Positions 12,391 to 54,508 are shown, counted from the stretch's first letter. The stretch: 55,453 bases of DNA from an uncultured Candidatus Saccharibacteria bacterium (GCA_964637575.1 CAZWVU010000005.1:1-55453), one strand, 5' to 3'. Translations and numbers: made by a program. Notes: generated by a model not told the origin, from the sequence alone.

Positions 12391-12432
12391 AACTATAGGT
12401 CTTAAAGGACCTATAGGACTTATAAGTCCTAT

Positions 12433-17351: not shown

Positions 17352-17352
17352 C

Positions 17353-17781: not shown

Positions 17782-17784
17782 CTC

Positions 17785-17852
17785 GTCCTTCTGTTCTTCT
17801 CCTCGCCGGGACGTCGGGCTACAATCCCGTCTGCGGGAAGAACAGCAGTCCT
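17785..17852 (+). repeat. conserved hairpin element E, copy 2
   Basis: Outer stem CTGTTCTTC/GAAGAACAG (17791-17799/17838-17846) around the core TCCTCG-CCGGGA-CGTCGGGCTACAA-TCCCG-TCTGCGG. Confidence 0.75.
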
Positions 17853-17982
17853 CGTATTTATTGGTAGTAGGTGGCCCGCTCCTTCTGGAGCGGGCTTTGG
17901 TATTCCGAGCCAAAATCCTCAGTGAATTTTAAAAGAAGCAACCTGCCCGCCATCGTTTGTTTTATTTTTAAAAGAACAATGG

Positions 17983-18822: not shown

Positions 18823-18857
18823 ATCCCCCGAACCATAGTGGTTCGGGGATTTTTTAT
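18823..18857. terminator. terminator between convergent genes
   Basis: Stem ATCCCC(C)GAACC/GGTTCGGGGAT then TTTTTT. Confidence 0.65.
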
Positions 18858-25431: not shown

Positions 25432-25471
25432 CCGATTTTGAGATACTGCGATTAGTTATTTGAGGTGCGGT

Positions 25472-26320
25472 ATGAAGAGCTTCATTGCGTGGTCGCTGGC
25501 GTTTTTTGGGTTGACCGTCGGCGTCGTGCTCGCGCAGGAAGATTTTTTGCGGAATACGAAAGGGATTAAAAAAGCGCACAGTTCGATCTCGGTGATTGAT
25601 CCTGACAAGAACGAGGAGAGTCCCTGGGCGGACGTTACGTTCCGTTATAACGAGGAGGGCGACTGCACGGAAGTCGTGCTGGGCGTGGCGGGCGGTGCTG
25701 AAACCACGACCTACGCCTATCAATACGACCAGAAGAAGCGGAAAACGGAAATCGTGAAGAAGATGAACGGCGCGCTCCGGAGTAAAGCGGTATACACCTA
25801 TGCCGAAAACGGGTCGTATGAACTCGCCCTGCAGGAGTATAAGGGAGAAAAGGCCGGGAAAGAAACGCCGTCGGATATCGCGAAAAGTCATTACAACGCG
25901 AAGGGGAATATCGTTTCCAGCACCCGTCATTATCATACCTTTGATATTGACGTGAAGCAGGAATATTCCTACGACAACCATGATTTTCTTGTCGAAATGA
26001 AGGAAACGGGGGGTGATCAAGTCGGGATATCGTCATTTACCAATGACGCCAAAGGCAATCATCTTGAACGAATCCTGAAAAACGCGGCCGGCGCCACGCT
26101 CGGCCGGGAGACCTGGAAGTGGAACGACAAAGGAGACTGGACGGAGCATTGCAGCTACGACGCAAAAGGGACGTTGCTGCAAAAAGAAACGGCGTCCGCC
26201 CGCTATAACGAGCATGGGCACCCGACCGAGTTTACGTACGCAATCTTTGCAGAGAACGCCACGAAGCTGGCGATGACGCTGAAGGGCCGCCAGGAATACG
26301 AATATTACGAAAAAAAATGA
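25472..26320 (+). CDS. secreted protein built of YD-like repeats
   Basis: Signal peptide ...VVLAQ. Recurrent Y/F-x-[YN]-[DN]-x-x-G units: FRYNEEGD, YTYAENGS, HYNAKGN, FTNDAKGN, WKWNDKGD, SYDAKGT, RYNEHGH. Confidence 0.55.
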   Translation: MKSFIAWSLAFFGLTVGVVLAQEDFLRNTKGIKKAHSSISVIDPDKNEESPWADVTFRYNEEGDCTEVVLGVAGGAETTTYAYQYDQKKRKTEIVKKMNGALRSKAVYTYAENGSYELALQEYKGEKAGKETPSDIAKSHYNAKGNIVSSTRHYHTFDIDVKQEYSYDNHDFLVEMKETGGDQVGISSFTNDAKGNHLERILKNAAGATLGRETWKWNDKGDWTEHCSYDAKGTLLQKETASARYNEHGHPTEFTYAIFAENATKLAMTLKGRQEYEYYEKK

Positions 26321-31365: not shown

Positions 31366-32415
31366 ATGAAATCTCCGCTGGCGATTTTTTCTAAAAATGT
31401 CGGGATCGATCTCGGCACGGCGAACTCGCTCGTGTATCTCGCGGGCCGCGGCATTGTCATCAACGAGCCGTCCATCGCGGCGCTCAACGCCAAGACCAAC
31501 CAGGTGCTTGCCATTGGCGAGGAGGCCAAGAAAATGATCGGCCGCACGCCTCAGCACATCAACGTCATCCGCCCGCTGGTCAACGGCGTCATCTCCGATT
31601 TCGAAATGGCGCAGGAAATGCTCCGGCATTTTCTCCGCAAACTCGGCGGCACGAAAATTTTCTACAGTTTCCAGAAAGCGGTCATCGGCGTGCCGAGCAA
31701 TCTCACGGAAGTGGAACGGAAATCGGTGGAGGACGCGGTGGTAGGTGCCGGCGTCTCCAAAGCCTTCATCATCGAAGAGCCGATCGCGGCCGCGCTCGGC
31801 GCGCGTCTGCCGATCGAGGAACCGGCGGCGAATATGATCATCGACATCGGCGGCGGCACCAGCGAGATCGCCATTATTTCTATGGGCGGGACGGTAACGT
31901 CCAAAAGTCTGAAAATTGCCGGCGACCGCCTGAACGACGACATTATCCGGTTCATCCGCGACGAGTTCAAACTGGCGATCGGAGAGCCGACGGCGGAAGA
32001 ATTGAAAATCCATATCGGATCGGCCCTGCCGCTCAATGAAAAAATGGAGATGACCATCCGCGGCCGCGATCTGGCAACCGGCCTGCCGCGCGAGGCGATC
32101 GTCCGGGATACCCACATCCGGGCTGCCATCGTGAAATCCCTGAAATCCATCGTGGAAGCGGTTAAAGAGGTGATCGAGGTTTCCCCGCCGGAGCTGGCGG
32201 GCGATATTCTCAAGCGGGGTATTTATATGTGCGGCGGTGGCAGCCTGCTGAAAGGCATGGATCAGTTGCTGGCCCGGGAGTTGGGAGTGCTCACGAATAT
32301 CGTTGACGATCCGCTGACCTGCGTCGCGCGCGGTACCGGCGTGGCCGTGGAGAATCTTGCCAAGTACCAGATCATTTTGGATAACCCGCTCCGGCCCCGG
32401 GATATTAAAATTTAA
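31366..32415 (+). CDS. mreB: rod-shape actin homolog MreB (copy 2)
   Basis: VGIDLGTANS, NEPSIAA, DIGGGTSEIAI; followed by mreC-mreD. Confidence 0.9.
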   Translation: MKSPLAIFSKNVGIDLGTANSLVYLAGRGIVINEPSIAALNAKTNQVLAIGEEAKKMIGRTPQHINVIRPLVNGVISDFEMAQEMLRHFLRKLGGTKIFYSFQKAVIGVPSNLTEVERKSVEDAVVGAGVSKAFIIEEPIAAALGARLPIEEPAANMIIDIGGGTSEIAIISMGGTVTSKSLKIAGDRLNDDIIRFIRDEFKLAIGEPTAEELKIHIGSALPLNEKMEMTIRGRDLATGLPREAIVRDTHIRAAIVKSLKSIVEAVKEVIEVSPPELAGDILKRGIYMCGGGSLLKGMDQLLARELGVLTNIVDDPLTCVARGTGVAVENLAKYQIILDNPLRPRDIKI

Positions 32416-46729: not shown

Positions 46730-47158
46730 ATGGCAAAACCAATCAAAGCCAAATTAATTTTGCAGATCGAAGCCGGCAAGGCCAATCCTGCGCCGCCGAT
46801 CGGTCCGGCGCTCGGCCAGCACGGCATCAACATCGCCGACTTTTGCAAGAAGTTCAACGACGCCACAAAGGACAAAATGGGGGACATTATTCCCGCCGAA
46901 ATCACGATCTACGAAGACCGTTCCTTTGATTTCAAACTGAAGACTTCTCCGGCATCCGCCCTGCTCCGTAAAGCCGCGGGCGTGGAGAAAGGTTCCGGCG
47001 AACCGAACAAAAAGAAAGTGGGCAAGGTGACGAAGGCGGACATCCGCGCGATAGCCGAGAAGAAGATGGTAGACCTCAACGCCAACTCCATTGAAGCAGC
47101 GATGCGCATCATTGAAGGCAGTGCCCGCAATATGGGAATAGAGGTGATTGAGAAGTAG
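46730..47158 (+). CDS. rplK: 50S ribosomal protein L11
   Basis: [28 protein letters not shown]. Confidence 0.95.
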
Positions 47159-47210
47159 CGCTTTTGTGGCCTCGGGCAATTACTTTCGGGAAACAGAATA
47201 ACTTTCACTC

Positions 47211-47267
47211 ACCCTCCTTCTCCTCGACAGGACGTCGGGCTTCAATCCTGTCTGCGGGAAGGAGGGT
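47211..47267 (+). repeat. conserved hairpin element E, copy 3
   Basis: Outer stem ACCCTCCTTC/GAAGGAGGGT around the core TCCTCG-ACAGGA-CGTCGGGCTTCAA-TCCTGT-CTGCGG. Confidence 0.8.
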
Positions 47268-47296
47268 TCGTTTTAGATGCTCCGAAGAAATAATAC

Positions 47297-47325
47297 TTGC
47301 GCTCGTTCATAAATTTTCCTACTCT
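47297..47325 (+). promoter_or_regulatory. island promoter 1
   Basis: TTGCGC, 17-nt spacer, TACTCT, then GCAG, T-run, GGAGG. Confidence 0.5.
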
Positions 47326-47352
47326 TACTGCAGTCCTTTTTGTGGAGGTTTT

Positions 47353-47661
47353 ATGGTTCCGTTGCATCCCAAAATTTGGAAGGCCGAGAAAGTACAGAAG
47401 AAATACGAAAAAATTCTGAAGAGCATGGAGGGCGTGCTGCACATCGGTCTTGGCGGCAATGTGAATACCGATATCGTGATCCGCATCGGCGTCGCCACCG
47501 AAGAGGCGGTGGAACTGGTCAAGGCCGTGATCGTGCCGGAGATCGAGGGTGTAAAAACCGAAATCTACTGGCGCCGGGTTGGCGGAGGCGCGCTCGATCC
47601 GGATAAGACAAAACCAGCCTCCGAAGATCCCGATCCGAATGGTCATCCCAATCATTTTTAG
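47353..47661 (+). CDS. orphan protein (102 aa)
   Basis: GGAGG is 4 nt before ATG 47353; own terminator. Confidence 0.5.
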   Translation: MVPLHPKIWKAEKVQKKYEKILKSMEGVLHIGLGGNVNTDIVIRIGVATEEAVELVKAVIVPEIEGVKTEIYWRRVGGGALDPDKTKPASEDPDPNGHPNHF

Positions 47662-47668
47662 CAATTCA

Positions 47669-47700
47669 CCCGCCCCGTAAGGGGCGGGATTTTTAATTTT
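47669..47700 (+). terminator. intrinsic terminator
   Basis: Stem CCCGCCCC/GGGGCGGG, GTAA loop, T-run. Confidence 0.8.
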
Positions 47701-47702
47701 CA

Positions 47703-47731
47703 TTTGCTTTATTTTATAAATCTGGTACTCT
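47703..47731 (+). promoter_or_regulatory. island promoter 2
   Basis: TTTGCT, 17-nt spacer, TACTCT. The 27-mer TCTGGTACTCTATGAGCAGTTTTTTGA (47721-47747) is identical to 48199-48225. Confidence 0.55.
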
Positions 47732-47758
47732 ATGAGCAGTTTTTTGAAGGAGATAGTG

Positions 47759-48151
47759 ATGAGTCGCGAGGTCATGCGAGAGGTGGAGGTGGTGCGCATT
47801 CCGGCCGGCAAAAAGTTGTTCCATGACGTTACCATTTGCGCTACGGTCGCGAGATCCGAGCTGTCCGAGTATCCGAAAGTTCTCGCCCTCGCGCGAACCA
47901 AATCTGGCGATGAGATCAAGTTGGGGATCCCGATGCTGGAGCGCCTGGTGAAAGACGAGGATGGCAACGTCGTGTTTTTCAAGCCGGATGCCGCGCTTCA
48001 TGCGATCTCCGCCGCTCTTGAGGATCGTGAGCGCGAGCAAGACCCGCAGAACAACTTTCCATACAGCTACAGCATCCTGGCCTTCTCTTTCAAAAAGGAC
48101 CGGGAGATGACCGTCCGTTTGCAGACACGACTCGTTGATACGGCCGACTAG
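47759..48151 (+). CDS. orphan protein (130 aa)
   Basis: GAAGGAG upstream of ATG 47759. The track start 47732 lies within or upstream of the predicted transcription start. Confidence 0.5.
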   Translation: MSREVMREVEVVRIPAGKKLFHDVTICATVARSELSEYPKVLALARTKSGDEIKLGIPMLERLVKDEDGNVVFFKPDAALHAISAALEDREREQDPQNNFPYSYSILAFSFKKDREMTVRLQTRLVDTAD

Positions 48152-48158
48152 CTTCAAA

Positions 48159-48190
48159 TTCCCCGTTGCAAAACGGGGAATTTACTTTTT
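48159..48190 (+). terminator. intrinsic terminator
   Basis: 9-bp stem TTCCCCGTT/AACGGGGAA then TTTACTTTTT. Confidence 0.75.
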
Positions 48191-48209
48191 AGGAATATTC
48201 TGGTACTCT
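48181..48209 (+). promoter_or_regulatory. island promoter 3
   Basis: TTTACT, 17-nt spacer, TACTCT; leader identical to that of promoter 2. Confidence 0.55.
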
Positions 48210-48235
48210 ATGAGCAGTTTTTTGAGGAGAAAAGC

Positions 48236-48853
48236 TTGGCTAAGCTGTGCGACAACAAGAGCGTCGGGATGGCGATCATTTTTCAGACGCGGCTGGCGAT
48301 GATCGACCGTGGGAATTATCCGCAGTGCAAAGCTCTGCCGGCCGGGCATCTGGACGGCGGCACCTACACCGGCATGGCGGTGACTGAAATTTCCCAGGAG
48401 ATCGGGCTGGTCATTCCGGAGCGGGATATTGTGATGGTCTTCGACGGGATCATCTGCAATCCCTGCAAGCGCGAGGGCGGCTCGCATCACGACTGGCGCG
48501 TCTACGCCATTCCGGAGGAGCGCCTGCCGTCCGCACTGGGTCTCAAGGCCGGCGACGATGCCAAGCGCGCGTTCTGGGCCGAAGAGAGCGAGTGGCGTCA
48601 CTATGCCGCCCGCACCGAGTGGTTCATTTCCGACCTCCGTTTGAGCTGGGTAGAAGTCGGAATGCTCACCCAAAAGATCTTCGGCGATCCGAAAACCGGG
48701 CCCGTGACTGACGAGGAAAAGCGGCGGTACGCCGAGTGGCAGCGCGATCCCGGTCTGGAGCCCTGCTGGTACTACATGCTTCGCATGGCCAAGTTCTTCG
48801 ACTGGACGTTCCAGAACGCGCCGGTGAAGAGTTGCGCTGCGCGCCCCGTTTGA
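48236..48853 (+). CDS. hypothetical protein with degenerate Nudix-like box
   Basis: TTG start after GAGGAG. GHLDGGTYTGMAVTEISQEIGL loosely fits Gx5Ex7REUxEExGU, but key Glu/Arg residues are replaced. Confidence 0.35.
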   Translation: MAKLCDNKSVGMAIIFQTRLAMIDRGNYPQCKALPAGHLDGGTYTGMAVTEISQEIGLVIPERDIVMVFDGIICNPCKREGGSHHDWRVYAIPEERLPSALGLKAGDDAKRAFWAEESEWRHYAARTEWFISDLRLSWVEVGMLTQKIFGDPKTGPVTDEEKRRYAEWQRDPGLEPCWYYMLRMAKFFDWTFQNAPVKSCAARPV

Positions 48854-48870
48854 CGGGGCGCTTTTTATTT
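48841..48870 (+). terminator. intrinsic terminator
   Basis: 9-bp stem GCGCCCCGT/ACGGGGCGC over the stop codon, then TTTTT. Confidence 0.8.
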
Positions 48871-48878
48871 TCTAGTAT
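48850..48878 (+). promoter_or_regulatory. island promoter 4
   Basis: TTGACG (inside the terminator), 17-nt spacer, TAGTAT, then AGCAG and AAGGAG. Confidence 0.5.
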
Positions 48879-48904
48879 CCAAGCAGACCTTTAAGGAGCA
48901 TCAC

Positions 48905-49489
48905 ATGAGTTGCGGCAATGAGGGCGGATGCGGATGTGGCCATCCCAGCGGAGCCAGTGACCGGGAAATTCTGGTCGCGATCGCGGTTGAGGCGAGTGCG
49001 CTTTCCACCTGCGTGAAGACGAAGACCGGCGCCGTGATCGTCAAAAACGGCATGCTGTTGTCCACCGGCCAGAACAAGTGCGCGCCGGAGGGCTGTGAGT
49101 ACGGCGACAAGGTGGAGAAGTGTCCGCGCGAGGGCATGAAGACCGGCACGGGCTATGAGCTTTGCAAGCCGGTACACGCGGAAGTCGCGGCCTGTCTGGG
49201 CGTGCGAACCCGGGCGCCTTCCAAAGAAGAAATGTCGAAGTTCGCCGGCCACCTCGCTCCCAGCCAGGACGAGATCCGCGCCGCGTTCACGCCCGAGGAG
49301 CTGGAAAAGCTCAACGGCGCCGCGCTGTATCTGGTCGGCCATTACTGGGCCTGCGACAACTGCAAGAATTTCTGCGCGGCGGTCGGAATCACCGACATCC
49401 AGTTCGATAAGATCAGCGGCGAGGTAACCCGGGAACGCTACGAACAGAAGGGACTCACGAAGGAAAATCCGCCTCCCGGTTCGGATTAA
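48905..49489 (+). CDS. dCMP (CMP/dCMP-type) deaminase
   Basis: CKPVHAEVAA (HAE) and ACDNC (PCxxC-like) zinc motifs, ComEB-like Cys-rich insert, Cys/Gly-rich N-terminus. Confidence 0.65.
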   Translation: MSCGNEGGCGCGHPSGASDREILVAIAVEASALSTCVKTKTGAVIVKNGMLLSTGQNKCAPEGCEYGDKVEKCPREGMKTGTGYELCKPVHAEVAACLGVRTRAPSKEEMSKFAGHLAPSQDEIRAAFTPEELEKLNGAALYLVGHYWACDNCKNFCAAVGITDIQFDKISGEVTRERYEQKGLTKENPPPGSD

Positions 49490-49494
49490 CACAC

Positions 49495-49521
49495 AAGCAG
49501 CTCGGTGAGCTGCTTTTTTAT
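49495..49521 (+). terminator. intrinsic terminator
   Basis: Stem AAGCAGCTC/GAGCTGCTT then TTTTTT. Confidence 0.8.
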
Positions 49522-49529
49522 ATCCAACC

Positions 49530-49558
49530 TTGTCTAAGAATTGCAAACCGGGTAAAAT
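49530..49558 (+). promoter_or_regulatory. island promoter 5
   Basis: TTGTCT, 17-nt spacer, TAAAAT; AGGAG before ATG 49590. Confidence 0.5.
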
Positions 49559-49589
49559 TATTTCCAGTGCATTACAATAGGAGTTAGAT

Positions 49590-50237
49590 ATGAACGGCAT
49601 ACTGATCGCGATCGAGGGCTCCGATAGCAGTGGCAAGAAAACCCAGACGGAGCTCCTGGTCGAGCGACTCAAGGCGGAAGGACGAAAGGTATCCACGCTT
49701 TCGTTTCCGCGTTACGGCGAGCCGGTAGTGGAGAAGATCCGGCAGTACATGAAGGAGAATCCCACCAAGGATCCCTACGAGGCCTCCAAACTTTACGCTG
49801 AAGACCGGCTGGACGCGGCGCCGCAGATCCGCGCCGCGCTGGAGCGCGGCGAGACCGTGGTGCTGGACCGTTTCACCGATTCCAACGCCGCGCATCAGGG
49901 CGGCAAGATCGCCGATCTGGCCGAACGCCGGAAATACGTGGAATGGCTTTTCCAATACGAATACCGGGAACTCGGCATTCCGAAGCCGGACCTGTCGCTG
50001 ATCCTCCGGGTACCCGTGGAGGTCAGTCTGGCCCTGATAGAAAAGCGGGGAGGTGCCAGAGACGGACATGAAGCCGATCCCAATCATCTCCGCAATGCCG
50101 AAGCCACCTATGACCTGCTGGCGGCGTGGTATCCCGAAGACCACAAAGTGGTGGAATGCGTGGCGGATGGACAGCTCCTGCCCAAGGAAGTCATCGCTGA
50201 AAACGTGTACGCGATCGTTACTCCGCTATTGCAATAG
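49590..50237 (+). CDS. tmk: thymidylate kinase
   Basis: IAIEGSDSSGKKTQ P-loop, DRFTDSNAAHQG, LID-like region. Confidence 0.85.
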   Translation: MNGILIAIEGSDSSGKKTQTELLVERLKAEGRKVSTLSFPRYGEPVVEKIRQYMKENPTKDPYEASKLYAEDRLDAAPQIRAALERGETVVLDRFTDSNAAHQGGKIADLAERRKYVEWLFQYEYRELGIPKPDLSLILRVPVEVSLALIEKRGGARDGHEADPNHLRNAEATYDLLAAWYPEDHKVVECVADGQLLPKEVIAENVYAIVTPLLQ

Positions 50238-50252
50238 CGGAGTTTTTTATTT
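50221..50252 (+). terminator. intrinsic terminator
   Basis: 10-bp stem CTCCGCTATT/AATAGCGGAG over the stop codon, then TTTTTT. Confidence 0.8.
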
Positions 50253-50257
50253 ACATT
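50229..50257 (+). promoter_or_regulatory. island promoter 6
   Basis: TTGCAA (inside the terminator), 17-nt spacer, TACATT, then AGCAG and AAAGGAAG. Confidence 0.45.
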
Positions 50258-50298
50258 GTGGGTAGCAGTATGATGTTCTTTTAGAAAGGAAGTCCATC

Positions 50299-50922
50299 GT
50301 GCACCACATCAACCGAGACGATCTTCGCAGGATGCGCGAGTATTTTGGAGAGGAGCTTTCCCGGATACACGGAAAACTGGACCGCCTCTTCGCGTTCGTC
50401 GAGGAGATCCGGCGGGACTACAAAAAAGGTCCGATCGTGATCTGTTCAAGTCAGCGGTTCAAGGAGCCGGTGGAGCGGCTCACGGAAATTCTCATTCAGA
50501 GAAATTTCCTCGTGTACCCGCCGAATTTCAAGCGGCATCTCAAGAAAATGATCGTGAAACCGGAGCACCTGCGCCTGCAGTCCCGGTCCTACGAAAACCG
50601 CGTGCCAGCGCTCGCCTACGACCATTTTCACAACCTGCACGTGGCGGGAAATCAGGCGGGAGTCTGCTTCGTCTACAACGAAGACGGCTACATCGGGCGC
50701 AACACGCTTTCGGAGATGTCGATTGCCCACGCCCGCGGCATGCCGGTCTTCGCGCTGATGCCGCATCTCAGCCGGGTGGGACGCAGCAAGCGGATCGCGA
50801 AGGGCGAGATTTACATCAATCGCACGCTGATCAGTCACAACGGCACGTTTTTGAAGCGGCCCGGCAAGAATGGCGCCGATCTGGACGCGCTCGCCGTCTG
50901 GCTGGAGGAAAGAGTCAAATAA
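50299..50922 (+). CDS. nucleoside 2-deoxyribosyltransferase / DNPH1-fold protein (207 aa)
   Basis: GTG start. IVICSSQRF and VCFVYNEDGYIGRNTLSEMSIAHARG resemble the fold's N-terminal strand and the D/G..T..E..A motif. Paralog of 51558..52019. Confidence 0.4.
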   Translation: MHHINRDDLRRMREYFGEELSRIHGKLDRLFAFVEEIRRDYKKGPIVICSSQRFKEPVERLTEILIQRNFLVYPPNFKRHLKKMIVKPEHLRLQSRSYENRVPALAYDHFHNLHVAGNQAGVCFVYNEDGYIGRNTLSEMSIAHARGMPVFALMPHLSRVGRSKRIAKGEIYINRTLISHNGTFLKRPGKNGADLDALAVWLEERVK

Positions 50923-50926
50923 CCCG

Positions 50927-50955
50927 ATCCCCTGTACAAAACAGGGGATTTTTTA
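50927..50955 (+). terminator. intrinsic terminator
   Basis: 9-bp stem ATCCCCTGT/ACAGGGGAT then TTTTTT. Confidence 0.8.
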
Positions 50956-50995
50956 TACTCTGATGGCAGAAACTTTTAGCGGAAAAGAGGCGTCT

Positions 50996-51487
50996 ATGGA
51001 CGACACGCTTTTGAAGAAAGCGCCTGCCCCGCCGGATTTCTCCGATGCCCGATGGCATCTGGTGAAAACCTGGTCGGCGCACGTGGAAAGCTCCGATCCA
51101 AAAGCCATGGAAGACAGAGAATGTGCCGAATCGGACACAAAAAGTCCTTCATGGGTTGGATATGTCCGTGAATTCCAGATGGGAGAATCCGGCCAGGGAC
51201 GCGAATATAATTTTTTCGGAAAAGAAATCCGTTTGAAATACTGGGGACTCAAAGGCGAAACCCGCCCGGGAAAGCGGGGACAACCGGTGCCCTTTTACGG
51301 CTGGTTCGCCTTTCTCCGTGCCGACGGAAAATGGGAAGTGTTTTCCCATGAAAGTTACAGCGCCGGTCTGGAAGCTGAACTCAGCAAGGGTACCGACACG
51401 AAGCGCGTGATCGCGGCCAAGCTGAAAATTTACCGGGTGGAACGCGGCGAGTCGAAGAAGCTCATTGAACTGACTGTCAAACGTTAA
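50996..51487 (+). CDS. orphan protein (163 aa; alternative start 50963)
   Basis: AAGAGG is 5 nt before ATG 50996. ATG 50963 is only 3 nt after the -10-like TATACT. Confidence 0.45.
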   Translation: MDDTLLKKAPAPPDFSDARWHLVKTWSAHVESSDPKAMEDRECAESDTKSPSWVGYVREFQMGESGQGREYNFFGKEIRLKYWGLKGETRPGKRGQPVPFYGWFAFLRADGKWEVFSHESYSAGLEAELSKGTDTKRVIAAKLKIYRVERGESKKLIELTVKR

Positions 51488-51493
51488 GCCCGC

Positions 51494-51521
51494 AATCCGC
51501 TTGTCACCAAGCGGATTTTTA
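51494..51521 (+). terminator. intrinsic terminator
   Basis: 9-bp stem AATCCGCTT/AAGCGGATT then TTTTT. Confidence 0.8.
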
Positions 51522-51529
51522 TGCATACT
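51501..51529 (+). promoter_or_regulatory. island promoter 7
   Basis: TTGTCA (inside the terminator), 17-nt spacer, CATACT, then GGGAGCAG, T-run, GAGGAG. Confidence 0.55.
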
Positions 51530-51557
51530 GGGAGCAGATTTTTTAGAGGAGAAAGCC

Positions 51558-52019
51558 GTGAAGTCGATAATTTTCTGTTCCAGCCAGCGCAACAAGAAAT
51601 TGCTGCGGGAATTCATTACCCGCCTTCGCGCGGCGACGCCGGAGGGGAAGCGGCTCATCATTTACGAGCCCCGCTTTGATGAGGACGGCCTGCCCGACCA
51701 TCTCCGTGAACTTCCCGAATCCGAGCGGATGAAGGATCCGACCTACCGTTCGCGGGTCGTGGAAAAAGTCCTGATGCACAATGAGCTGATTCCCGCCGCC
51801 GATGTCTGCTACATTTTCAATCCGGGCGGCTATATCGGCAACAATACGCACGCCGAACTGGTGACCGCCGCCGTGCTGAAAAAGCACCGCTTCGCGTATC
51901 ACAAGCCGATCCTGATGGGCGAGTGGCCGGACAAGCTCCACGAGGAACCGTCCGCCACCGCATATGTGGATCAGAACGCGGTCTCCGATCCGAAAGAACT
52001 TATCCAGTATCTTCTTTAA
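51558..52019 (+). CDS. nucleoside 2-deoxyribosyltransferase / DNPH1-fold protein (153 aa), paralog of 50299..50922
   Basis: GTG start; IIFCSSQRN and VCYIFNPGGYIGNNTHAELVTAAVLKK. Confidence 0.4.
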   Translation: MKSIIFCSSQRNKKLLREFITRLRAATPEGKRLIIYEPRFDEDGLPDHLRELPESERMKDPTYRSRVVEKVLMHNELIPAADVCYIFNPGGYIGNNTHAELVTAAVLKKHRFAYHKPILMGEWPDKLHEEPSATAYVDQNAVSDPKELIQYLL

Positions 52020-52020
52020 G

Positions 52021-52051
52021 AAAAATCCCCTCATGAGGGGATTTCTTTTTT
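52021..52051. terminator. bidirectional terminator
   Basis: A-run, palindrome ATCCCCTCATGAGGGGAT, T-run; lies between convergent genes. Confidence 0.8.
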
Positions 52052-52601
52052 ACTTGGGATGAATGCCGCGCTTTTTCAGGCGTGCCAATGTTTCATTGAA
52101 GACGCCGTCGCGATCCAGATTGGTGGTGTCAATCACTTCGTGAAAGTGCTTGGGATCAAGATAATCCTCAATCGCGTACAGTGACTGGTACCGGGCGCGT
52201 TCGTTGGCGAGACGCTCTGCCGAAAGCCGCAGCATGTCGGAAAGTTCCTGCGCCTGGTTTTCCGGACGCATCTGCTGACGGCGCGCGCCTTCCACGGGGT
52301 CAATGGTGAAGAGAAGATTTATTTTGAGAAGACAGGAATCCCAAAAAGGCGCCATCCGCCCTTCAATGATCTGGTCGTCCCAATAGATAAGCGATTTCGC
52401 CATGTCGGCGTCCACCTTCTTTTCGCGTTCGGGATCACTGGCAAGCTCCGCGTAAAATTGCTCAATCGTTTTGCTTTCTTTCGCCGCCATTTCGCGGAAG
52501 ATGCCGCCGACATAGGTATACTTATATCCGAGAATGGGGGCCAGCCGTTTGCACAGCGTGGTCTTTCCCGATCCTTGATGGCCGCTGACCGCGATCAGCA
52601 T
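52050..52601 (-). CDS. P-loop nucleoside-monophosphate kinase, archaeal-type cytidylate-kinase-like
   Basis: MLIAVSGHQGSGKTTLCKRLA...GYKYTYVGGIFREMA...IIEGRM. Confidence 0.6.
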   Translation of the reverse strand: MLIAVSGHQGSGKTTLCKRLAPILGYKYTYVGGIFREMAAKESKTIEQFYAELASDPEREKKVDADMAKSLIYWDDQIIEGRMAPFWDSCLLKINLLFTIDPVEGARRQQMRPENQAQELSDMLRLSAERLANERARYQSLYAIEDYLDPKHFHEVIDTTNLDRDGVFNETLARLKKRGIHPK

Positions 52602-52643: not shown

Positions 52644-54059
52644 ATGAAGTATCAACCGACCATCGGGTTGGAAATCCATGCCGAATTGAAGACGCAGACC
52701 AAGATGTTCTGTGATTCGCTCAACGATCCGGAGGAAAAACATCCGAATACCAACGTCTGCCCGATCTGTACCGGCCACCCCGGCACCCTGCCGACCATTA
52801 ACAAGCAGGCGGTTCAGCATGTGCTGAAAGTCGGCATGGCGATCAACGGCGACATTCCGCAGTTTTCCAAATTTGACCGCAAGAATTATTTTTACCCCGA
52901 TCTGCCGAAAAGCTATCAGATTTCCCAGTACGATCTGCCGCTGATTTTCGGCGGTTCGCTCAACAGTGTGCGCATCCGCCGCATTCATCTTGAGGAAGAC
53001 ACGGGTCGGCTTATCCATTCCGAAGACGGGAAGAGTTCGTATGTCGATTATAACCGCGCCAGCGTGCCGCTGATGGAATTGGTAACCGAACCGGATATCC
53101 GGAGCGCCGAGCAGGCGGGTGCCTTCGCGCGCGAATTGCAGCTTATCCTGCGCTATCTGGGCGTGTCCGACGCGGATATGGAGAAGGGGCAGATGCGCGT
53201 TGAGGCGAATATCAGTCTGAATATGGGCACCAAAGTTGAGGTGAAAAATATCAACTCTTTCAAAGCGGTAGAGGGCGCGATTAATTATGAAATCAAGCGG
53301 CAGGAGGAGGTGATTGAATCAGGAGGGAAAGTTGTTCAGGAAACGCGGGGATGGGATGATGTCCACAATAAAACCGTGTCCCAGCGGGCGAAGGAGAACG
53401 CGCATGAGTATCGCTACTTTCCGGAGCCGGATCTGCCGCCGCTGGACCTGATGCATTTTGATCTGAAGCAATTGAAGCTGGAAATTCCTGAACTGCCGCT
53501 CGCGAAACGCCAGCGGTTCGTGAAGCAGTACGGCCTGACGCCGGAGATGGCGGAGCTTTTGGTGCTCGACCGCCGCATGGGGGAATATTTTGAAGAATCG
53601 GTTTCAGAACTGGCGGAAGATAACAATGAGAATCTGCCCGAGAAAACCAAACTGCTTGTGAATTATCTCACCAGCGATCTGGCTGGACTTATGATCGCGA
53701 AAGAGATCAGCTGGGACGCGCTGAAAGTGGATCCAGAGAACTTTGCCGACCTGATCCAGATGATCGCGGGCGGGAAGATCAACAGCCGCGTAGCAAAGGA
53801 CGTGCTTGCGAAAATGTTTGAGACCGGCCTGGATCCGAACGACATCGTGGAAGAGGGCGGGCTAACGCAGGTGTCCGACGTGGACGCGTTACGCGCAATC
53901 GTGCTGAAAATAATCGCCGAAAATCCGAAGGCAATCGAGGATTACAAGAAAGGAAAGGAGGCGGCGCTCCAGTTTCTCGTGGGCAAATCCATGGCCGCAT
54001 TGAAGGGAAGAGGAAACCCCGAGGTTTTGAAGAAGGTTATTAAAGAGAATATACTGTAA
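52644..54059 (+). CDS. gatB: Asp/Glu-tRNA amidotransferase subunit B
   Basis: MKYQPTIGLEIHAELKTQTKMFC...CPICTGHPGTLP. TATAAT ends 7 nt before ATG 52644. The track start 52458 was rejected. Confidence 0.9.
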   Translation: MKYQPTIGLEIHAELKTQTKMFCDSLNDPEEKHPNTNVCPICTGHPGTLPTINKQAVQHVLKVGMAINGDIPQFSKFDRKNYFYPDLPKSYQISQYDLPLIFGGSLNSVRIRRIHLEEDTGRLIHSEDGKSSYVDYNRASVPLMELVTEPDIRSAEQAGAFARELQLILRYLGVSDADMEKGQMRVEANISLNMGTKVEVKNINSFKAVEGAINYEIKRQEEVIESGGKVVQETRGWDDVHNKTVSQRAKENAHEYRYFPEPDLPPLDLMHFDLKQLKLEIPELPLAKRQRFVKQYGLTPEMAELLVLDRRMGEYFEESVSELAEDNNENLPEKTKLLVNYLTSDLAGLMIAKEISWDALKVDPENFADLIQMIAGGKINSRVAKDVLAKMFETGLDPNDIVEEGGLTQVSDVDALRAIVLKIIAENPKAIEDYKKGKEAALQFLVGKSMAALKGRGNPEVLKKVIKENIL

Positions 54060-54079: not shown

Positions 54080-54508
54080 GTGAATAACGCAAAGATCCCC
54101 GAACTCGATGATGGCACGTGGGAAGCTCTGTATACCAAGGATTGCTATTACGATCCCAAGGGCGAAACGGTGAGGGCGATCAAGCTAAGGGTGAATATGT
54201 CGAAACGCGACTTCGCGCTTCGCGAGAAATTGCTGCCGTTCTGGTTTGCGAAAGCTACCCGGTTCGCGCACCGGGGCGGTCAGGCCGGGTGCATTACGAT
54301 CCGGCCCATGCATGAAGAAGTCGCGGTTATCACGTGGGGACTTACGGATGACGAGGAGCATTGGGCGCGGGCGCTTCGTACCAGGAAGGGCTGGAGAATT
54401 CTGACTCCCCAGGAAAAATGGGAATTCGGATTTACTCTCAATGATAAGGCCGACGGTTTCGAGAAGATTTGCCTGTATATCGGCGAAGAAGAAATTGCCC
54501 AATACTAA
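54080..54508 (+). CDS. orphan protein (142 aa)
   Basis: GGAGG is 4 nt before GTG; 20 nt after the gatB stop, so probably cotranscribed. Confidence 0.45.
   Translation: MNNAKIPELDDGTWEALYTKDCYYDPKGETVRAIKLRVNMSKRDFALREKLLPFWFAKATRFAHRGGQAGCITIRPMHEEVAVITWGLTDDEEHWARALRTRKGWRILTPQEKWEFGFTLNDKADGFEKICLYIGEEEIAQY

What the first reader, a model, noticed from the sequence alone, without database searches (positions are those of the whole stretch)
47159..52601. Accessory array of nine monocistronic genes, rich in pyrimidine deoxynucleotide enzymes, inserted where rplA should follow rplK
The nearly universal secE-nusG-rplK-rplA order is broken after rplK (stop at 47158) by element E3 and then nine genes. 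Eight are on the + strand and the last is convergent.

Each + strand gene has its own intrinsic terminator, and seven have a recognisable -35/-10 pair. In four cases the -35 box is embedded in the upstream gene's terminator or 3' end.

Recognisable products:
- A degenerate Nudix-like protein.
- dCMP deaminase.
- dTMP kinase.
- Two deoxyribosyltransferase/DNPH1-fold paralogs.
- A CMP-kinase-like P-loop kinase.
- Three orphans of 102, 130 and 163 aa interleaved with these.

This composition resembles phage-style nucleotide-metabolism cassettes and fits a dNMP salvage or sanitising module. In that reading, deaminate / phosphorylate / cleave dNMP to base plus deoxyribose-5-P would suit an organism lacking de novo nucleotide synthesis. 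The strictly independent transcription units and the interspersed orphans are unusual. A role in nucleotide-pool manipulation for conflict (phage or host) cannot be excluded.
Basis: partly seen in the sequence, partly recalled or inferred. Interest (0 to 1): 0.7.

Follow-up and report, generated by a model that had tools for sequence, protein, structure and literature searches.

The report
Lineage-conserved pyrimidine nucleotide salvage cluster
Nine small, separately transcribed genes between rplK and gatB of a Parcubacteria (CPR) genome are the local version of a nucleotide salvage and clean-up cluster found at this spot across the lineage. rplA is missing from the whole clade rather than displaced, so the arrangement is largely ordinary. 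The exception is an unannotated pair of nucleotide-glycosidase-like enzymes that often sit next to a Nudix hydrolase in CPR genomes.

Summary

- **What is there.** Nine coding ORFs lie at 47353-52601, eight on the + strand and one convergent. Every + gene ends in a perfect 8-12 bp hairpin followed by a T-run. Six share an ACTCT-N4-GCAG leader motif found almost nowhere else in the window.
- **rplA.** The closest relatives all have gyrB-secE-nusG-rplK-[0.1-4.7 kb]-gatB-thrS without rplA. This matches the published loss of rpL1 across the OD1-L1 Parcubacteria.
- **The interval is ancestral.** In 27 of 28 loci with rplK and gatB on one contig, the interval holds nucleotide genes (tmk, dCMP deaminase, thyA/thyX, folA, MazG, HD, Nudix).
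- **The array is inherited.** A sister genome (rplK 95% identical) carries g3-g4-g5-g6-g7-g8 in the same order. Another contig has g4-tmk-g3-g6-g8 as a tight operon. Codon usage is native and there are no mobility signatures.
- **The "orphans".** g1, g2 and g7 have positional homologues in relatives.
- **What is new.** g6 and g8 belong to an NDT-superfamily branch that Pfam and NCBIfam do not recognise. It keeps the catalytic Glu but has its own signature, and it often neighbours a g3-type Nudix in CPR metagenome loci.

Best reading: a vertically inherited pyrimidine (deoxy)nucleotide salvage and sanitising module. Substrates are inferred, not shown.

The parts
46730..47158 (+). rplK (ribosomal protein L11). 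This is the upstream anchor of the conserved rplK-gatB interval.
   Evidence: Pfam Ribosomal_L11_N and Ribosomal_L11 on the identical protein. It is 70-95% identical to rplK of related loci.
47213..47265 (+). Element 'E3': a repeated hairpin element with a T-rich 3' flank, lying between rplK and g1. It may act as the rplK terminator.
   Evidence: Copies occur at 8159-8211 (96%) and 17796-17840 (91%). The outer stem covaries between copies. There is no Rfam hit.
47353..47661 (+). g1: a 102-aa protein of unknown function from a lineage-restricted family.
   Evidence: Its composition and frame discrimination are those of a coding gene. No library hit. It is 27% identical (pairwise E 7e-7) to L084:151-399; that family occupies the slot right after rplK in L082. 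Putative promoter TTGCGC-17-TACTCT at 47297-47325 (read by eye). Terminator hairpin at 47669-47688.
47759..48151 (+). g2: a 130-aa protein of unknown function from a lineage-restricted family.
   Evidence: It is 30% identical (pairwise E 4e-13) to the first ORF after rplK in L091. The 46-nt promoter/leader at 47702-47747 duplicates the one upstream of g3. Terminator at 48156-48183.
48236..48853 (+). g3: a divergent Nudix-family protein with a degenerate Nudix box and a C-terminal extension.
   Evidence: It has 65 homologues, nearly all carrying PF00293. The family profile hits the solved Nudix 2yyh at 1.9e-8. The box reads G-HLDGG-T-YTGMAV-TE-IS-QE-IGL; E51 and E55 are invariant in the family. 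Terminator at 48841-48861 overlaps the stop codon.
48905..49489 (+). g4: a dCMP-deaminase-like zinc deaminase of a divergent subfamily with an insertion of about 30 aa.
   Evidence: PF00383 scores 25.9 bits against a cut-off of 25. PHROG dCMP deaminase hits at 4e-9. HAE (91-93) and C150-x-x-C153 are invariant, and the insertion is shared with L085 and L093. Promoter TTGACG-17-TAGTAT at 48850-48878. Terminator at 49495-49515.
49590..50237 (+). g5: dTMP kinase (Tmk).
   Evidence: PF02223 at 1.1e-25 and NCBIfam dTMP kinase at 5e-34. A tmk lies in the rplK-gatB interval in 22 of 28 loci. Promoter at 49530-49558. Terminator at 50220-50243.
50299..50922 (+). g6: NDT-superfamily protein (paralogue A), likely a nucleotide N-glycosidase, with a 44-aa N-terminal helical extension.
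   Evidence: No direct Pfam, NCBIfam or PDB sequence hit. An exhaustive profile search gave 107 representatives; of 95 scanned, 36 hit PF05014, 13 hit DUF4406 and 6 hit Nuc_deoxyri_tr2. The AF2 model has pLDDT 82, and Foldseek's best matches are NDT, YtoQ, DNPH1 and a phage NDT. E139 aligns with the catalytic Glu of CMP N-glycosidase.
50996..51487 (+). g7: a 163-aa predicted all-beta protein of unknown function. It is a paralogue of the gene that follows gatB.
   Evidence: Homologues sit in the same slot in L085 (40%), L083 (34%), L091 (25%) and L084. hhalign against the orf142 family gives 93.8% probability, E 1.8e-7. The single-sequence AF2 model is poor (pLDDT 49). Terminator at 51494-51517.
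51558..52019 (+). g8: NDT-superfamily protein (paralogue B).
   Evidence: It is 31% identical to g6 (E 2e-10). Homologues: L084 (61%), L085 (42%). It co-occurs with a g6-type gene in at least 7 further loci. Motifs CSSQR and GYIGNNTHAE. Promoter TTGTCA-17-CATACT at 51501-51529. The bidirectional terminator at 52018-52049 is shared with g9.
52050..52601 (-). g9: a convergent P-loop NMP kinase resembling (d)CMP kinase.
   Evidence: PF13189 Cytidylate_kin2 scores 30.4 bits (cut-off 28). TIGR02173 archaeal (d)CMP kinase scores 62 bits, below its cut-off of 102. It is absent from L085. In L004 and L091 the same slot holds a convergent NDT-like::guanylate kinase fusion.
52644..54059 (+). gatB: the downstream anchor of the interval.
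   Evidence: It is 54-81% identical to gatB in relatives, always downstream of rplK. Pfam GatB_N and GatB_Yqey on the L085 orthologue.
54080..54508 (+). orf142: a conserved unknown protein after gatB and a distant paralogue of g7.
   Evidence: Homologues sit in the same position in L085, L091 and L154. hhalign against the g7 family.

Best explanation
The nine genes are the local, expanded version of a vertically inherited pyrimidine (deoxy)nucleotide salvage and house-cleaning cluster. This cluster occupies the rplK-gatB interval throughout Parcubacteria. rplA is not displaced: this organism belongs to the rpL1-less clade.

**Functional core.**
- A trio that recurs in CPR metagenome loci: a Nudix hydrolase (g3) plus two NDT-superfamily paralogues (g6, g8).
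- A dCMP-deaminase-like enzyme (g4) and dTMP kinase (g5), which join the trio here.
- Lineage-restricted small proteins (g1, g2, g7) and a convergent NMP kinase (g9) around these.

**Proposed mechanism.**
1. Scavenged dNMPs that the cell wants are phosphorylated: dTMP by Tmk and (d)CMP by g9.
2. dCMP and 5-substituted dCMPs are deaminated by g4 to dUMP-type nucleotides.
3. Unwanted or non-canonical (d)NTPs are returned to (d)NMPs by the Nudix.
4. g6 and g8 cleave the N-glycosidic bond of unwanted (d)NMPs, giving free base plus (deoxy)ribose-5-phosphate, both of which are recycled.

Each gene is expressed as its own unit: a promoter, a leader of roughly 20-35 nt, a Shine-Dalgarno site and an intrinsic terminator.

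**Shown:** family and superfamily assignments, conserved catalytic residues, synteny and co-occurrence, and the DNA signals.

**Inferred:** substrates, the direction of flux, whether g6 and g8 act on ribo- or deoxyribonucleotides, whether they form a heteromer, and actual transcript boundaries.
For: **Lineage and position.**
- The closest 20-odd genomes are Parcubacteria with gyrB-secE-nusG-rplK-[variable]-gatB-thrS and no rplA.
- rpL1 loss across OD1-L1 is published (PMC5220378; PMC7304191).

**The interval is an ancestral home for nucleotide genes.**
- 27 of 28 loci carry at least one (tmk 22, dcd 10, thyA/X 8, Nudix 10, NDT-like 8).
- Pfam confirms ThyX, MazG, HD and Gmk among them.

**The array is inherited.**
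- L085 (rplK 95%, gyrB 92%) has g3-g4-g5-g6-g7-g8 in order.
- L083, L084, L082 and L091 carry subsets.
- L093 has g4-tmk-g3-g6-g8 as a tightly packed operon.

**Nudix and NDT-like genes are linked.** Of 27 metagenome loci with at least 1.5 kb on both sides of a g3-type Nudix, 17 have an NDT-like gene within 1.5 kb and 9 have two or more. Across all 39 loci that have such a neighbour, every NDT-like neighbour lies on the Nudix strand in 38. Examples include NDT-Nudix-NDT operons in distant low-GC CPR contigs.

**Families.**

**Native composition.** RSCU distance to background gives p about 0.13.

**Signals.**. The same terminator-promoter-leader layout is present in L083 and L085.
Against: - No enzyme activity has been tested.
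- g3 has lost three of the five conserved charged Nudix-box residues and may be inactive or repurposed.
- g4 barely passes the Pfam threshold and carries an unusual insertion.
- The g6/g8 family lacks the canonical Tyr and probably the Asp of the NDT/DNPH1 triad (the register was set by eye). Hydrolase chemistry is therefore not assured.
- No thymidylate synthase, dUTPase, DeoC or nrd is visible in the window. The fate of the dUMP made by g4 is therefore unexplained from these 55 kb.
- g6, g7 and g8 diverge much faster than the flanking genes: 40-46% identity to L085 against 81-95%. That would also fit a conflict role.
- One relative (L014) has an empty interval, so the cluster is dispensable at this site.
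Confidence: 0.6

Rival explanations
1. The same enzymes serve nucleotide catabolism for carbon and energy instead of pool sanitation. In this reading, Nudix plus NDT-like N-glycosidases strip bases from surplus (d)NMPs. The (deoxy)ribose-5-phosphate then feeds the pentose-phosphate pathway or DeoC, much like the CPR nucleoside/RuBisCO salvage route.
For: - The Nudix-NDT-like pair or trio occurs in many CPR loci without dcd or tmk, so it works as a self-contained unit.
- CPR organisms are predicted to channel nucleotide-derived sugar phosphates into glycolysis (PMC7304191).
- DeoC-like ORFs sit in or near the cluster in L072 and L112 (and listings, identified by eye only).
Against: - In this lineage the pair is embedded with Tmk, dCMP deaminase and NMP kinases, which are anabolic or balancing enzymes.
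- No deoC or RuBisCO-pathway gene was seen in the window.
- The DeoC calls were not tested with a profile.
Confidence: 0.15
2. This is the first reader's view: a horizontally acquired, phage-style accessory island inserted after rplK, built up from independently acquired gene cassettes.
For: - Each gene has its own promoter and terminator.
- A promoter/leader is duplicated upstream of g2 and g3.
- The content of the interval varies between relatives, and L014 has an empty site.
- g1, g2 and g9 are missing from the sister genome L085.
- NDT-fold proteins, dCMP deaminases and Tmk are common in phages.
Against: - Codon usage is native.
- There is no integrase, tRNA or flanking direct repeat.
- Six of the nine genes sit in the same order in L085, and five form an operon in L093.
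- The interval holds nucleotide genes in 27 of 28 Parcubacteria loci.
- No viral-contig relative was found for the g6 family, and only one weak hit for g3.
- The absence of rplA is clade-wide.
Confidence: 0.08
3. The cluster is a conflict module. It would manipulate nucleotide pools for anti-phage defence, or for exploiting a host, through deamination, hydrolysis or base removal from dNTPs and dNMPs.
For: - g6, g7 and g8 evolve fast relative to the flanking genes.
- The NDT/TIR/SLOG-type fold is frequent in defence systems (TIR hits).
- g4 gives weak local hits to the anti-phage dCTP deaminase models (NF041025 at 1.4e-3; PADLOC dCTPase at 4e-5).
Against: - The hits to defence models cover only the shared deaminase core, and the scores are far below cut-off (17.6 bits against 400).
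- g1, g2, g3, g6, g7 and g8 give no PADLOC match, and g5 and g9 give only generic P-loop kinase hits.
- The genes are embedded in a core housekeeping region (dnaG, rpoD, alaS, pheST, gyrB, gatB, thrS).
- Position and content are conserved across a broad lineage.
- There is no sensor or effector architecture.
Confidence: 0.07
4. The cluster bypasses thymidylate synthase. g4 makes dUMP, and the NDT-like enzymes act as transferases that swap uracil for salvaged thymine on the deoxyribose-5-phosphate (or on the nucleoside). This would yield dTMP for Tmk without ThyA, ThyX or folate.
For: - Classical NDTs are base-exchange transferases that work through a covalent Glu intermediate, and that Glu is conserved here.
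- Among 28 complete rplK-gatB intervals, none has both a thy gene and an NDT-like gene: 0 with both, 8 with NDT only, 8 with thy only, 12 with neither (Fisher p = 0.06).
- No thyA or thyX is present in the window.
Against: - The anticorrelation is weak and confounded by phylogeny.
- L097 has tmk-thyA-folA and Nudix plus a g8-like gene within 4 kb.
- The pair occurs in many loci without dcd or tmk.
- The closest solved relatives by profile are hydrolases (CMP N-glycosidases).
- thy genes could lie elsewhere in the genome.
Confidence: 0.07

Closest known systems
Parcubacterial rplK(-rplA)-...-tmk-gatB nucleotide cluster, as seen here in related genomes such as Moranbacteria L027 and L017, L020, L015, L076
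   Same: - The same chromosomal slot between rplK and gatB.
- The same core of dCMP deaminase and dTMP kinase.
- The same theme of pyrimidine deoxynucleotide metabolism and house-cleaning (MazG or HD in those genomes, Nudix here).
   Different: - Those clusters contain thyA or thyX, folA and often rplA, and are mostly operon-like.
- The window lacks thy, folA and rplA.
- It has instead the Nudix plus two NDT-like genes, three small unknown proteins and a convergent kinase, and it is fully monocistronic.
DNPH1 (Rcl) acting with DCTD in mammalian nucleotide-pool sanitation
   Same: - A dCMP deaminase is paired with an NDT-fold enzyme that acts on nucleoside 5'-monophosphates. In mammals, DCTD converts hmdCMP to hmdUMP (from my own knowledge; the paper text I searched does not mention DCTD). 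DNPH1 then cleaves hmdUMP to base plus dR5P (PMC10603095, PMC10483697).
- The g6 model matches DNPH1 structures (TM 0.47-0.49 normalised to the target).
- A C-G/S-S-x-R motif resembles DNPH1's phosphate-binding CGSIRGG loop. This comparison is from memory and was not tested.
   Different: - No sequence-level hit to DNPH1.
- The position of DNPH1 Tyr24 is Val or Thr in this family. The Asp80 position appears to be a near-invariant His (84 of 95 sequences) (register set by eye).
- Two paralogues plus a Nudix partner are present here, which the mammalian system lacks.
CMP / hydroxymethyl-CMP N-glycosidases MilB, BlsM and BcmB (NDT family)
   Same: - These are the best profile-to-PDB sequence matches (4jen_A at E 0.0023; MilB 4jem at 0.29).
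- The family motif G-x-[SN]-T-x-x-E-I-x-[YF]-A aligns on their GThiEiGwA catalytic Glu motif.
- They hydrolyse nucleotides, not nucleosides (PMC4081090).
   Different: - The E-values are marginal.
- MilB and BcmB work in antibiotic biosynthesis clusters.
- MilB's Phe17/Phe22/Arg23 recognition residues could not be mapped.
- The context here is housekeeping salvage.
Nucleoside 2'-deoxyribosyltransferases (PF05014; Lactobacillus, Chroococcidiopsis, phage NDTs)
   Same: - The fold matches. The top Foldseek hits are 8pqt (probability 1.0) and a Myoviridae NDT (E 5e-6, TM 0.68 to the target).
- 36 of 95 family representatives hit PF05014.
- The Glu nucleophile is conserved.
   Different: - g6 and g8 themselves do not reach PF05014 even at E 0.1.
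- The family has its own signature: C-G-S-x-R-F, H-F-x-K-I and N-x-x-G-Y-I-G.
- It lacks the NDT Tyr.
Phage nucleotide-metabolism cassettes (dCMP deaminase, Tmk/dNMP kinase, NDT, MazG/Nudix)
   Same: The enzyme families are the same. g4 and g5 hit the PHROG dCMP deaminase and thymidylate kinase families.
   Different: - No relatives were found in viral contigs for the g6 family.
- Composition is native and the chromosomal position is conserved.
- There are no phage structural or integration genes nearby.

Membership tests
Nudix hydrolase superfamily (g3) | Nudix fold and a match to PF00293 | tested here: met
   g3 itself gives no Pfam hit at E 0.1. However, 58 of its 65 homologues (29-64% identical) carry PF00293. 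The family profile hits solved Nudix proteins (2yyh at 1.9e-8).
Nudix hydrolase superfamily (g3) | An intact Nudix box, GX5EX7REUXEEXGU, with its catalytic glutamates | tested here: not met
   The family uses a spacing one residue shorter (x6). g3 reads G-HLDGG-T-YTGMAV-T-E-I-S-Q-E-I-G-L: the first Glu is Thr, the Arg is Thr, and the first Glu of the EE pair is Gln. Only E51 and E55 remain, and both are invariant in the family. Catalytic competence is uncertain.
dCMP / cytidine deaminase zinc-dependent family, PF00383 (g4) | H(C)AE and PCxxC zinc-binding and catalytic motifs | tested here: met
   H91-A-E93 and C150-D-N-C153 are invariant in a 9-sequence alignment, with A in place of P before the first Cys. 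Pfam scores 25.9 bits against a cut-off of 25. PHROG dCMP deaminase hits at 4e-9.
dCMP / cytidine deaminase zinc-dependent family, PF00383 (g4) | Specificity for dCMP (as opposed to bases, nucleosides or dCTP) | not testable with these tools
   Only context points to dCMP: the gene is adjacent to tmk here and in L085 and L093. The subfamily has a unique insertion of about 30 aa and is 22-28% identical to the canonical dCMP deaminases of relatives.
dTMP kinase (g5) | Full-length match to thymidylate kinase models with a P-loop | tested here: met
   PF02223 scores 90.9 bits (cut-off 27) across residues 8-188. NF005923 hits at 5e-34, and TIGR00041 scores 80 bits, just under its equivalog cut-off of 83. 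The P-loop is GSDSSGKKT. Orthologues are 75-81% identical in L085 and L083.
Nucleoside 2-deoxyribosyltransferase superfamily (g6, g8) | Flavodoxin-like NDT fold | tested here: met
   The AF2 model of g6 has pLDDT 81.8. The top PDB matches are NDT, YtoQ and DNPH1 (probability 0.97-1.0, but E only 6e-3 to 5e-2 and TM 0.4-0.5). The top viral match is an annotated NDT (E 5e-6, TM 0.68). By transitive sequence evidence, 55 of 95 family representatives hit PF05014, PF14359 or PF15891.
Nucleoside 2-deoxyribosyltransferase superfamily (g6, g8) | Catalytic Glu nucleophile in the G-T-x-x-E-x-G motif | tested here: met
   E139 of g6 is present in 93 of 95 representatives and in g8. It aligns with the Glu of the GThiEiGwA motif in CMP N-glycosidase 4jen and of the GTAWELG motif in NDT 6evs.
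DNPH1 / Rcl dNMP N-hydrolase family (g6, g8) | Catalytic triad Tyr24 / Asp80 / Glu104 (PMC10603095) | tested here: inconclusive
   The Glu is conserved. With the C-G/S-S-x-R loop aligned by eye on DNPH1's Y-F-C-G-S-I-R, the Tyr position is Val or Thr (77 of 92). The Asp position falls at or next to a near-invariant His (84 of 95). No structural superposition or HMM alignment to DNPH1 was available to fix the register.
DNPH1 / Rcl dNMP N-hydrolase family (g6, g8) | Sequence-level family membership | tested here: not met
   DNPH1 does not appear in phmmer or profile searches of PDB sequences at E up to 1-10. The resemblance is at fold level only.
(d)CMP kinase (g9) | Match above the curated cut-off to a cytidylate kinase model | tested here: inconclusive
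   PF13189 Cytidylate_kin2 scores 30.4 bits (cut-off 28), which passes. TIGR02173 archaeal (d)CMP kinase scores 62.4 bits over residues 1-167 against a cut-off of 102, which fails. PF02224 matches the P-loop region only.
Genomic island / horizontally acquired cassette | Deviant composition or codon usage | tested here: not met
   GC across the array is 0.51-0.59 against a window mean of about 0.54. The RSCU distance of the array from 37 background genes is not unusual (p about 0.13). GC3 is only slightly higher.
Genomic island / horizontally acquired cassette | Mobility genes, a tRNA target or flanking direct repeats | tested here: not met
   The only tRNA is at positions 2-73. No bracketing direct repeats were found; the only long repeat is the internal promoter duplication. 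None of the nine proteins matched an integrase or transposase family in any library scan.
Genomic island / horizontally acquired cassette | Absent from close relatives at an otherwise conserved site | tested here: not met
   L085, L083, L084, L082, L091, L093, L100 and L117 carry the same families at the same site. Only g9 lacks a counterpart, and g1 and g2 are missing from L085. One relative (L014) has an empty site.
Known anti-phage defence systems (PADLOC-DB) | Significant match of the components to a defence-system model | tested here: not met
   Only generic kinase and deaminase-core hits were found (dCTPase at 4e-5 over 50 residues; pVip-kinase at 1e-9 over the P-loop kinase domain). g1, g2, g3, g6, g7 and g8 gave nothing.

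The most novel reading that the evidence does not exclude
The g3-type Nudix and the g6/g8-type NDT-superfamily paralogues form a previously undescribed nucleotide-processing pathway that recurs across CPR genomes: (d)NTP to (d)NMP to free base plus (deoxy)ribose-5-phosphate.

- Its glycosidase branch would use a modified active site, with an invariant Glu plus His, Asn and Tyr of the H-F-x-K-I and N-x-x-G-Y-I-G motifs in place of the canonical Tyr/Asp/Glu triad.
- The two paralogues may work as a heteromer.
- In the rpL1-less Parcubacteria this pathway has been recruited, together with a divergent dCMP deaminase and Tmk, to clean or rebalance scavenged pyrimidine deoxynucleotides. In some lineages it may stand in for thymidylate synthase.
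Probability: 0.3. Interest if true: 0.6.

Novelty: new variant of a known kind. Interest (0 to 1): 0.4.

Why it matters
CPR bacteria cannot make nucleotides de novo and depend on scavenged DNA and RNA. How they sort, rebalance and detoxify scavenged nucleotides is largely unknown.

This locus makes three points:
- A gene order that looks "broken" (rplK without rplA) is simply the known loss of rpL1. It should not be read as an insertion.
- The rplK-gatB interval is a lineage-wide home for pyrimidine deoxynucleotide genes, which makes it a useful anchor for annotating CPR genomes.
- An NDT-superfamily branch that Pfam and NCBIfam cannot see often neighbours a distinctive Nudix in CPR loci. That gives a concrete, testable candidate for a bacterial counterpart of the DCTD/DNPH1-type sanitation route, or for a route that catabolises nucleotides.

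The fully monocistronic layout with a shared leader motif is also a compact natural set of terminator-promoter junctions for studying transcription in an uncultivated lineage.

Tried and rejected
**Searches that found nothing useful**
- Direct Pfam, NCBIfam, PHROG, PADLOC and PDB-sequence searches of g1, g2, g6, g7 and g8 gave nothing. g3's only output was a sub-threshold PDB match to a Nudix protein (4dyw, E 0.56).
- The word-indexed homologue search for g7 returned only the query itself. For g6 it returned only 4 relatives.
- The metagenome scan with the g6 alignment found nothing, because the patterns were too specific.
- Viral-contig scans found no relative of the g6 family and one weak 2.6 kb contig for the Nudix. 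A phage origin was therefore rejected.
- The exact-protein look-up with rplK returned only a 1.7 kb identical contig.
- Pfam scans of positional homologues of g1, g2, g7 and orf142 hit no family.
- Rfam at gathering threshold found only tRNA-Pro, so no riboswitch or leader is known for the array or for E3.

**Structure prediction**
- The single-sequence model was too poor (pLDDT 49) to justify a fold search.

**Ideas tested and set aside**
- Direct repeats bracketing the array were sought as att-like sites. None exist.
- thyA, thyX, folA, dut, dcd and MazG from relatives were searched against the window. None matched.
- The anticorrelation between thy and NDT-like genes in the interval was tested (Fisher p = 0.06). 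It is kept only as a weak lead because of the phylogenetic confound and the L097 counterexample.
Only 3-4 stand out by sigma-70 consensus.

Full report
**1. What is in the sequence**

The window is a ~54% GC stretch of a Patescibacteria (Parcubacteria-type) chromosome packed with housekeeping genes. These include dnaG, rpoD, alaS, a murA-like gene, two mreB copies, PBP2, pheS, pheT, gyrB, secE, nusG, rplK, gatB, thrS and rpoA.

After the rplK stop at 47158 come a 194-nt spacer and nine ORFs:
- g1 47353-47661
- g2 47759-48151
- g3 48236-48853
- g4 48905-49489
- g5 49590-50237
- g6 50299-50922
- g7 50996-51487
- g8 51558-52019
- g9 52050-52601 (minus strand)

gatB follows at 52644. All nine ORFs have the GC-by-codon-position pattern and frame discrimination of the window's other genes. 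The array's codon usage does not differ from 37 background genes (p about 0.13). No rplA, rplJ or rplL homologue is present anywhere in the window.

**2. Transcription signals**

*Terminators.*
- Each of the eight + strand genes ends in a perfect 8-12 bp hairpin (dG -12 to -19 kcal/mol). The hairpin overlaps the stop codon or lies within about 10 nt of it, and a T-run follows.
- That is 7-8 strong sites in 5.4 kb, compared with roughly five per 20 kb elsewhere.

*Promoters.*
- By sigma-70 consensus, g4, g5 and g8 reach 9/12, and only 2.7% of random 80-nt windows do so. g6 reaches 8/12 and the others reach only 6-7/12.
- Six genes share a TACTCT-type -10 box followed by a leader with ACTCT-N4-GCAG-N3-TTT. 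There are six hits in the array, three of them exact, against four two-mismatch hits in the remaining 50 kb. No shuffle out of 100 reached the total of ten.
- A 46-nt promoter/leader is duplicated upstream of g2 and g3.
- The -35 boxes of g3, g4, g6, g7 and g8 lie within the preceding terminator hairpin or the 3' end of the preceding gene.
- The same terminator / T-tract / -10 / short leader / SD layout separates the orthologous genes in the sister contigs L083 and L085. More distant relatives have overlapping, operon-like genes.

The monocistronic architecture is therefore real, unusual for this window, and derived within a narrow clade.

**3. Why rplA is missing**

- A scan of one genome per species with rplK returned 80 loci.
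- The closest are all Patescibacteria (L002-L009, L014-L016, L023, L039 and others). They show gyrB-secE-nusG-rplK, then 0.1-3.6 kb, then gatB and a convergent thrS. None has rplA after rplK.
- More distant Parcubacteria (L012, L017, L020, L021, L026, L027) keep rplK-rplA. Non-CPR bacteria show rplK-rplA-rplJ-rplL.
- The literature states that a large Parcubacteria group, OD1-L1, lacks rpL1 in all members (PMC5220378; PMC7304191).

The missing rplA is therefore the known clade-wide loss, not a local displacement.

**4. The interval is an ancestral home for nucleotide genes**

- Among 28 loci with rplK and gatB on one contig, 27 have at least one nucleotide-metabolism gene between them. The counts are tmk in 22, dCMP deaminase in 10, thyA or thyX in 8, g3-type Nudix in 10 and NDT-like in 8. 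folA, MazG, HD-domain and Gmk-like genes also occur.
- In Moranbacteria-type loci the order is rplK-rplA-kinase-...-dCMP deaminase-thyA/thyX-folA-tmk-MazG-gatB.

The window's content is thus a variant of an old arrangement.

**5. The array itself is inherited**

- **L085** (gyrB 92%, rplK 95%, gatB 81% identical) has rplK-g3(69%)-g4(63%)-g5(75%)-g6(46%)-g7(40%)-g8(42%)-gatB-orf142-thrS. It lacks g1, g2 and g9.
- **L083** has x-g3(72%)-tmk(81%)-g6(69%)-Nudix-g7(34%).
- **L084** has a g1-like ORF, then dcd-g6(64%)-Nudix-g7-like-g8(61%).
- **L082** has rplK, a g1-like ORF, then dcd-g6(60%).
- **L091** (rplK 90%) has rplK, a g2-like ORF, then Nudix-tmk-g6-Nudix-g7-like, a convergent NDT-like::guanylate-kinase fusion, and gatB.
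- **L093** packs g4(62%)-tmk(58%)-g3(43%)-g6(50%)-g8(46%) with 12-28 nt spacers, so it is an operon.
- g1 and g2 match ORFs of related loci: pairwise E 7e-7 for g1 and 4e-13 for g2. The g2 match (L091) and the L082 member of the g1-like family lie directly after rplK.
- g7 belongs to a family that also includes the conserved gene after gatB, orf142 (hhalign 93.8%, E 1.8e-7).
- No tRNA, integrase or bracketing repeat is present.
- Viral-contig scans found no g6-family relative and one weak Nudix hit.
- PADLOC gave only generic kinase and deaminase-core hits.

**6. The proteins**

*g5* is a dTMP kinase (PF02223 at 1e-25).

*g4* keeps the HAE and CxxC motifs of the CDA/dCMP-deaminase fold and just passes PF00383. 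It belongs to a divergent subfamily with an insertion of about 30 aa, shared with L085 and L093.

*g9* is a cytidylate-kinase-like P-loop kinase. It passes PF13189 but falls below the NCBIfam equivalog cut-off.

*g3* has no Pfam hit itself.
- It sits in a family of 65 proteins that nearly all carry PF00293. The profile hits solved Nudix enzymes.
- The family box is one residue shorter than the canonical box.
- g3 has Thr, Thr and Gln at three of the five conserved charged positions. It keeps the two Glu residues that are invariant in the family.

*g6 and g8* are paralogues.
- They give no direct Pfam, NCBIfam or PDB hit.
- An exhaustive profile search found 107 representatives among 1.84 billion proteins.
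- Of 95 scanned, 36 hit Nuc_deoxyrib_tr, 13 hit DUF4406 and 6 hit Nuc_deoxyri_tr2.
- The AF2 model of g6 (pLDDT 82) matches NDT, YtoQ and DNPH1 in the PDB. These matches have high probability but weak E-values and TM of 0.4-0.5. It also matches a phage NDT in BFVD (E 5e-6, TM 0.68).
- The family profile aligns best to the CMP N-glycosidase 4jen (E 0.0023), with the conserved Glu on the catalytic Glu.
- Column statistics give a family signature: C-G-S-x-[RK]-F, H-F-x-K-I, and A-D-x-V-x-V-x-N-x-x-G-Y-I-G-x-[SN]-T-x-x-E. The Glu is present in 93 of 95 sequences and the His in 84 of 95.
- In a by-eye register against DNPH1, the canonical Tyr is Val or Thr and the canonical Asp is replaced by, or lies next to, the His. 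This is a lead, not a test.

**7. A wider pattern**

- Scanning metagenomes with the Nudix alignment gave 71 loci.
- Of the 27 with at least 1.5 kb on both sides, 17 have an NDT-like gene within 1.5 kb and 9 have two or more. Across all 39 loci that have such a neighbour, every NDT-like neighbour lies on the Nudix strand in 38.
- Distant low-GC CPR contigs show NDT-Nudix-NDT trios with overlapping genes, away from rplK-gatB.
- The Nudix plus two NDT-like genes therefore look like a self-contained functional unit. The rpL1-less Parcubacteria have combined it with dCMP deaminase and Tmk.
- A full-text search for deoxyribosyltransferase, Nudix and Patescibacteria found no description of this pairing.

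**8. Mechanism**

The best-supported reading is a salvage and house-cleaning module for scavenged pyrimidine (deoxy)nucleotides:
- kinases keep the wanted nucleotides;
- the deaminase converts (modified) dCMP;
- the Nudix returns unwanted triphosphates to monophosphates;
- the NDT-like enzymes remove the base, releasing (deoxy)ribose-5-phosphate.

This parallels the DCTD/DNPH1 route in mammals (DNPH1's role: PMC10603095, PMC10483697; the DCTD step rests on my own knowledge) and the chemistry of MilB-type nucleotide N-glycosidases (PMC4081090).

Only family membership, conserved residues, synteny and DNA signals are shown. Substrates and flux are inferred.

Open problems:
- the degenerate Nudix box of g3;
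- the fate of dUMP without a visible thymidylate synthase or dUTPase in these 55 kb;
- the fast divergence of g6, g7 and g8 relative to the flanking genes;
- the functions of g1, g2 and g7.

Rivals are listed with their tests: carbon/energy catabolism, an acquired island, a conflict module, and a thymidylate-synthase bypass by base exchange.

**9. Verdict**

The headline interpretation, an accessory array inserted in place of rplA, is not supported. The locus is a lineage-conserved and locally elaborated nucleotide cluster. Its moderately novel element is the Pfam-invisible NDT-superfamily pair that often neighbours a distinctive Nudix in CPR loci. The unusually clean monocistronic layout with a shared leader is a second point of interest.

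Noticed in passing
A conserved core of about 44 nt (TTCTCCTCG-CAGGACGTCGGGCTTCAATCCTG-CTGCGGGAAG) is flanked by an outer stem whose sequence differs between copies but stays complementary. There is no Rfam match at gathering threshold. It could be a REP-like terminator element or a small structured RNA.
   Followed up: partly
window 47702-47747 and 48180-48225: A 46-nt promoter/leader is duplicated upstream of g2 and g3 (83% identity, with the last 29 nt identical). A near-identical leader (GGTATTCTATGAGCAGTTTTTTTGAGGAGG) precedes the first gene of contig L083.
   Followed up: partly
window 50996-51487 and 54080-54508; L084:2054-2482; L085:6460-6954 and 9051-9488; L091:7223-7678 and 10110-10526: g7 and the gene just after gatB (orf142) are distant paralogues of an unannotated, lineage-restricted family of small proteins, predicted (at low confidence) to be all-beta. 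Shared motifs are an N-terminal PPDF..W and a central WGL. The two copies lie upstream and downstream of gatB.
   Followed up: partly
L004:3844-4773 (-) and L091:7695-8909 (-): A convergent gene just upstream of gatB occupies the same slot as g9. It encodes an N-terminal NDT/DUF4406-like domain (identified by eye) fused to a guanylate kinase domain (Pfam PF00625 in L004).
   Followed up: partly
L002:5904-9092 and L028:4861-6948: The gyrB match is split into two pieces. The gap is about 1.1 kb in L002 and about 0.2 kb in L028, which suggests an intein or other insertion in gyrB of some relatives.
   Followed up: no
L072:15341-16009 and L112:4978-5892 (-): ORFs with an N-terminal motif typical of deoxyribose-phosphate aldolase (IDHT.L...AT..DI..LC.EA). 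One lies inside the rplK-gatB interval (L072) and one lies about 1 kb from a Nudix/NDT-like pair (L112). They were identified by eye only.
   Followed up: no
window 21096-22103 and 31366-32415: There are two full-length MreB paralogues (each hits PF06723 at about 1e-130) within 10 kb of each other.
   Followed up: no
window 26390-28555, 12433-13986, 11206-12390, 18854-19777 (-), 25460-26320, 17137-17913 (-): Large ORFs (258-721 aa) with no Pfam hit at 1e-5, set in an otherwise housekeeping region. The ORF at 12433-13986 has an almost full-length antisense ORF (12379-13941).
   Followed up: no
L085:3485-3673: In the sister genome, the slot after rplK holds a small ORF of about 60 aa that looks hydrophobic and membrane-like, in place of g1 and g2. 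It is driven by the same type of promoter/leader. The first position after rplK seems to be a swap site for small genes.
   Followed up: no
L097:3452-8161: One metagenome contig combines rplK-tmk-thyA-folA with a g3-type Nudix and a g8-like gene within about 4 kb. It is the only case seen where a thymidylate synthase and the NDT-like module lie close together.
   Followed up: partly
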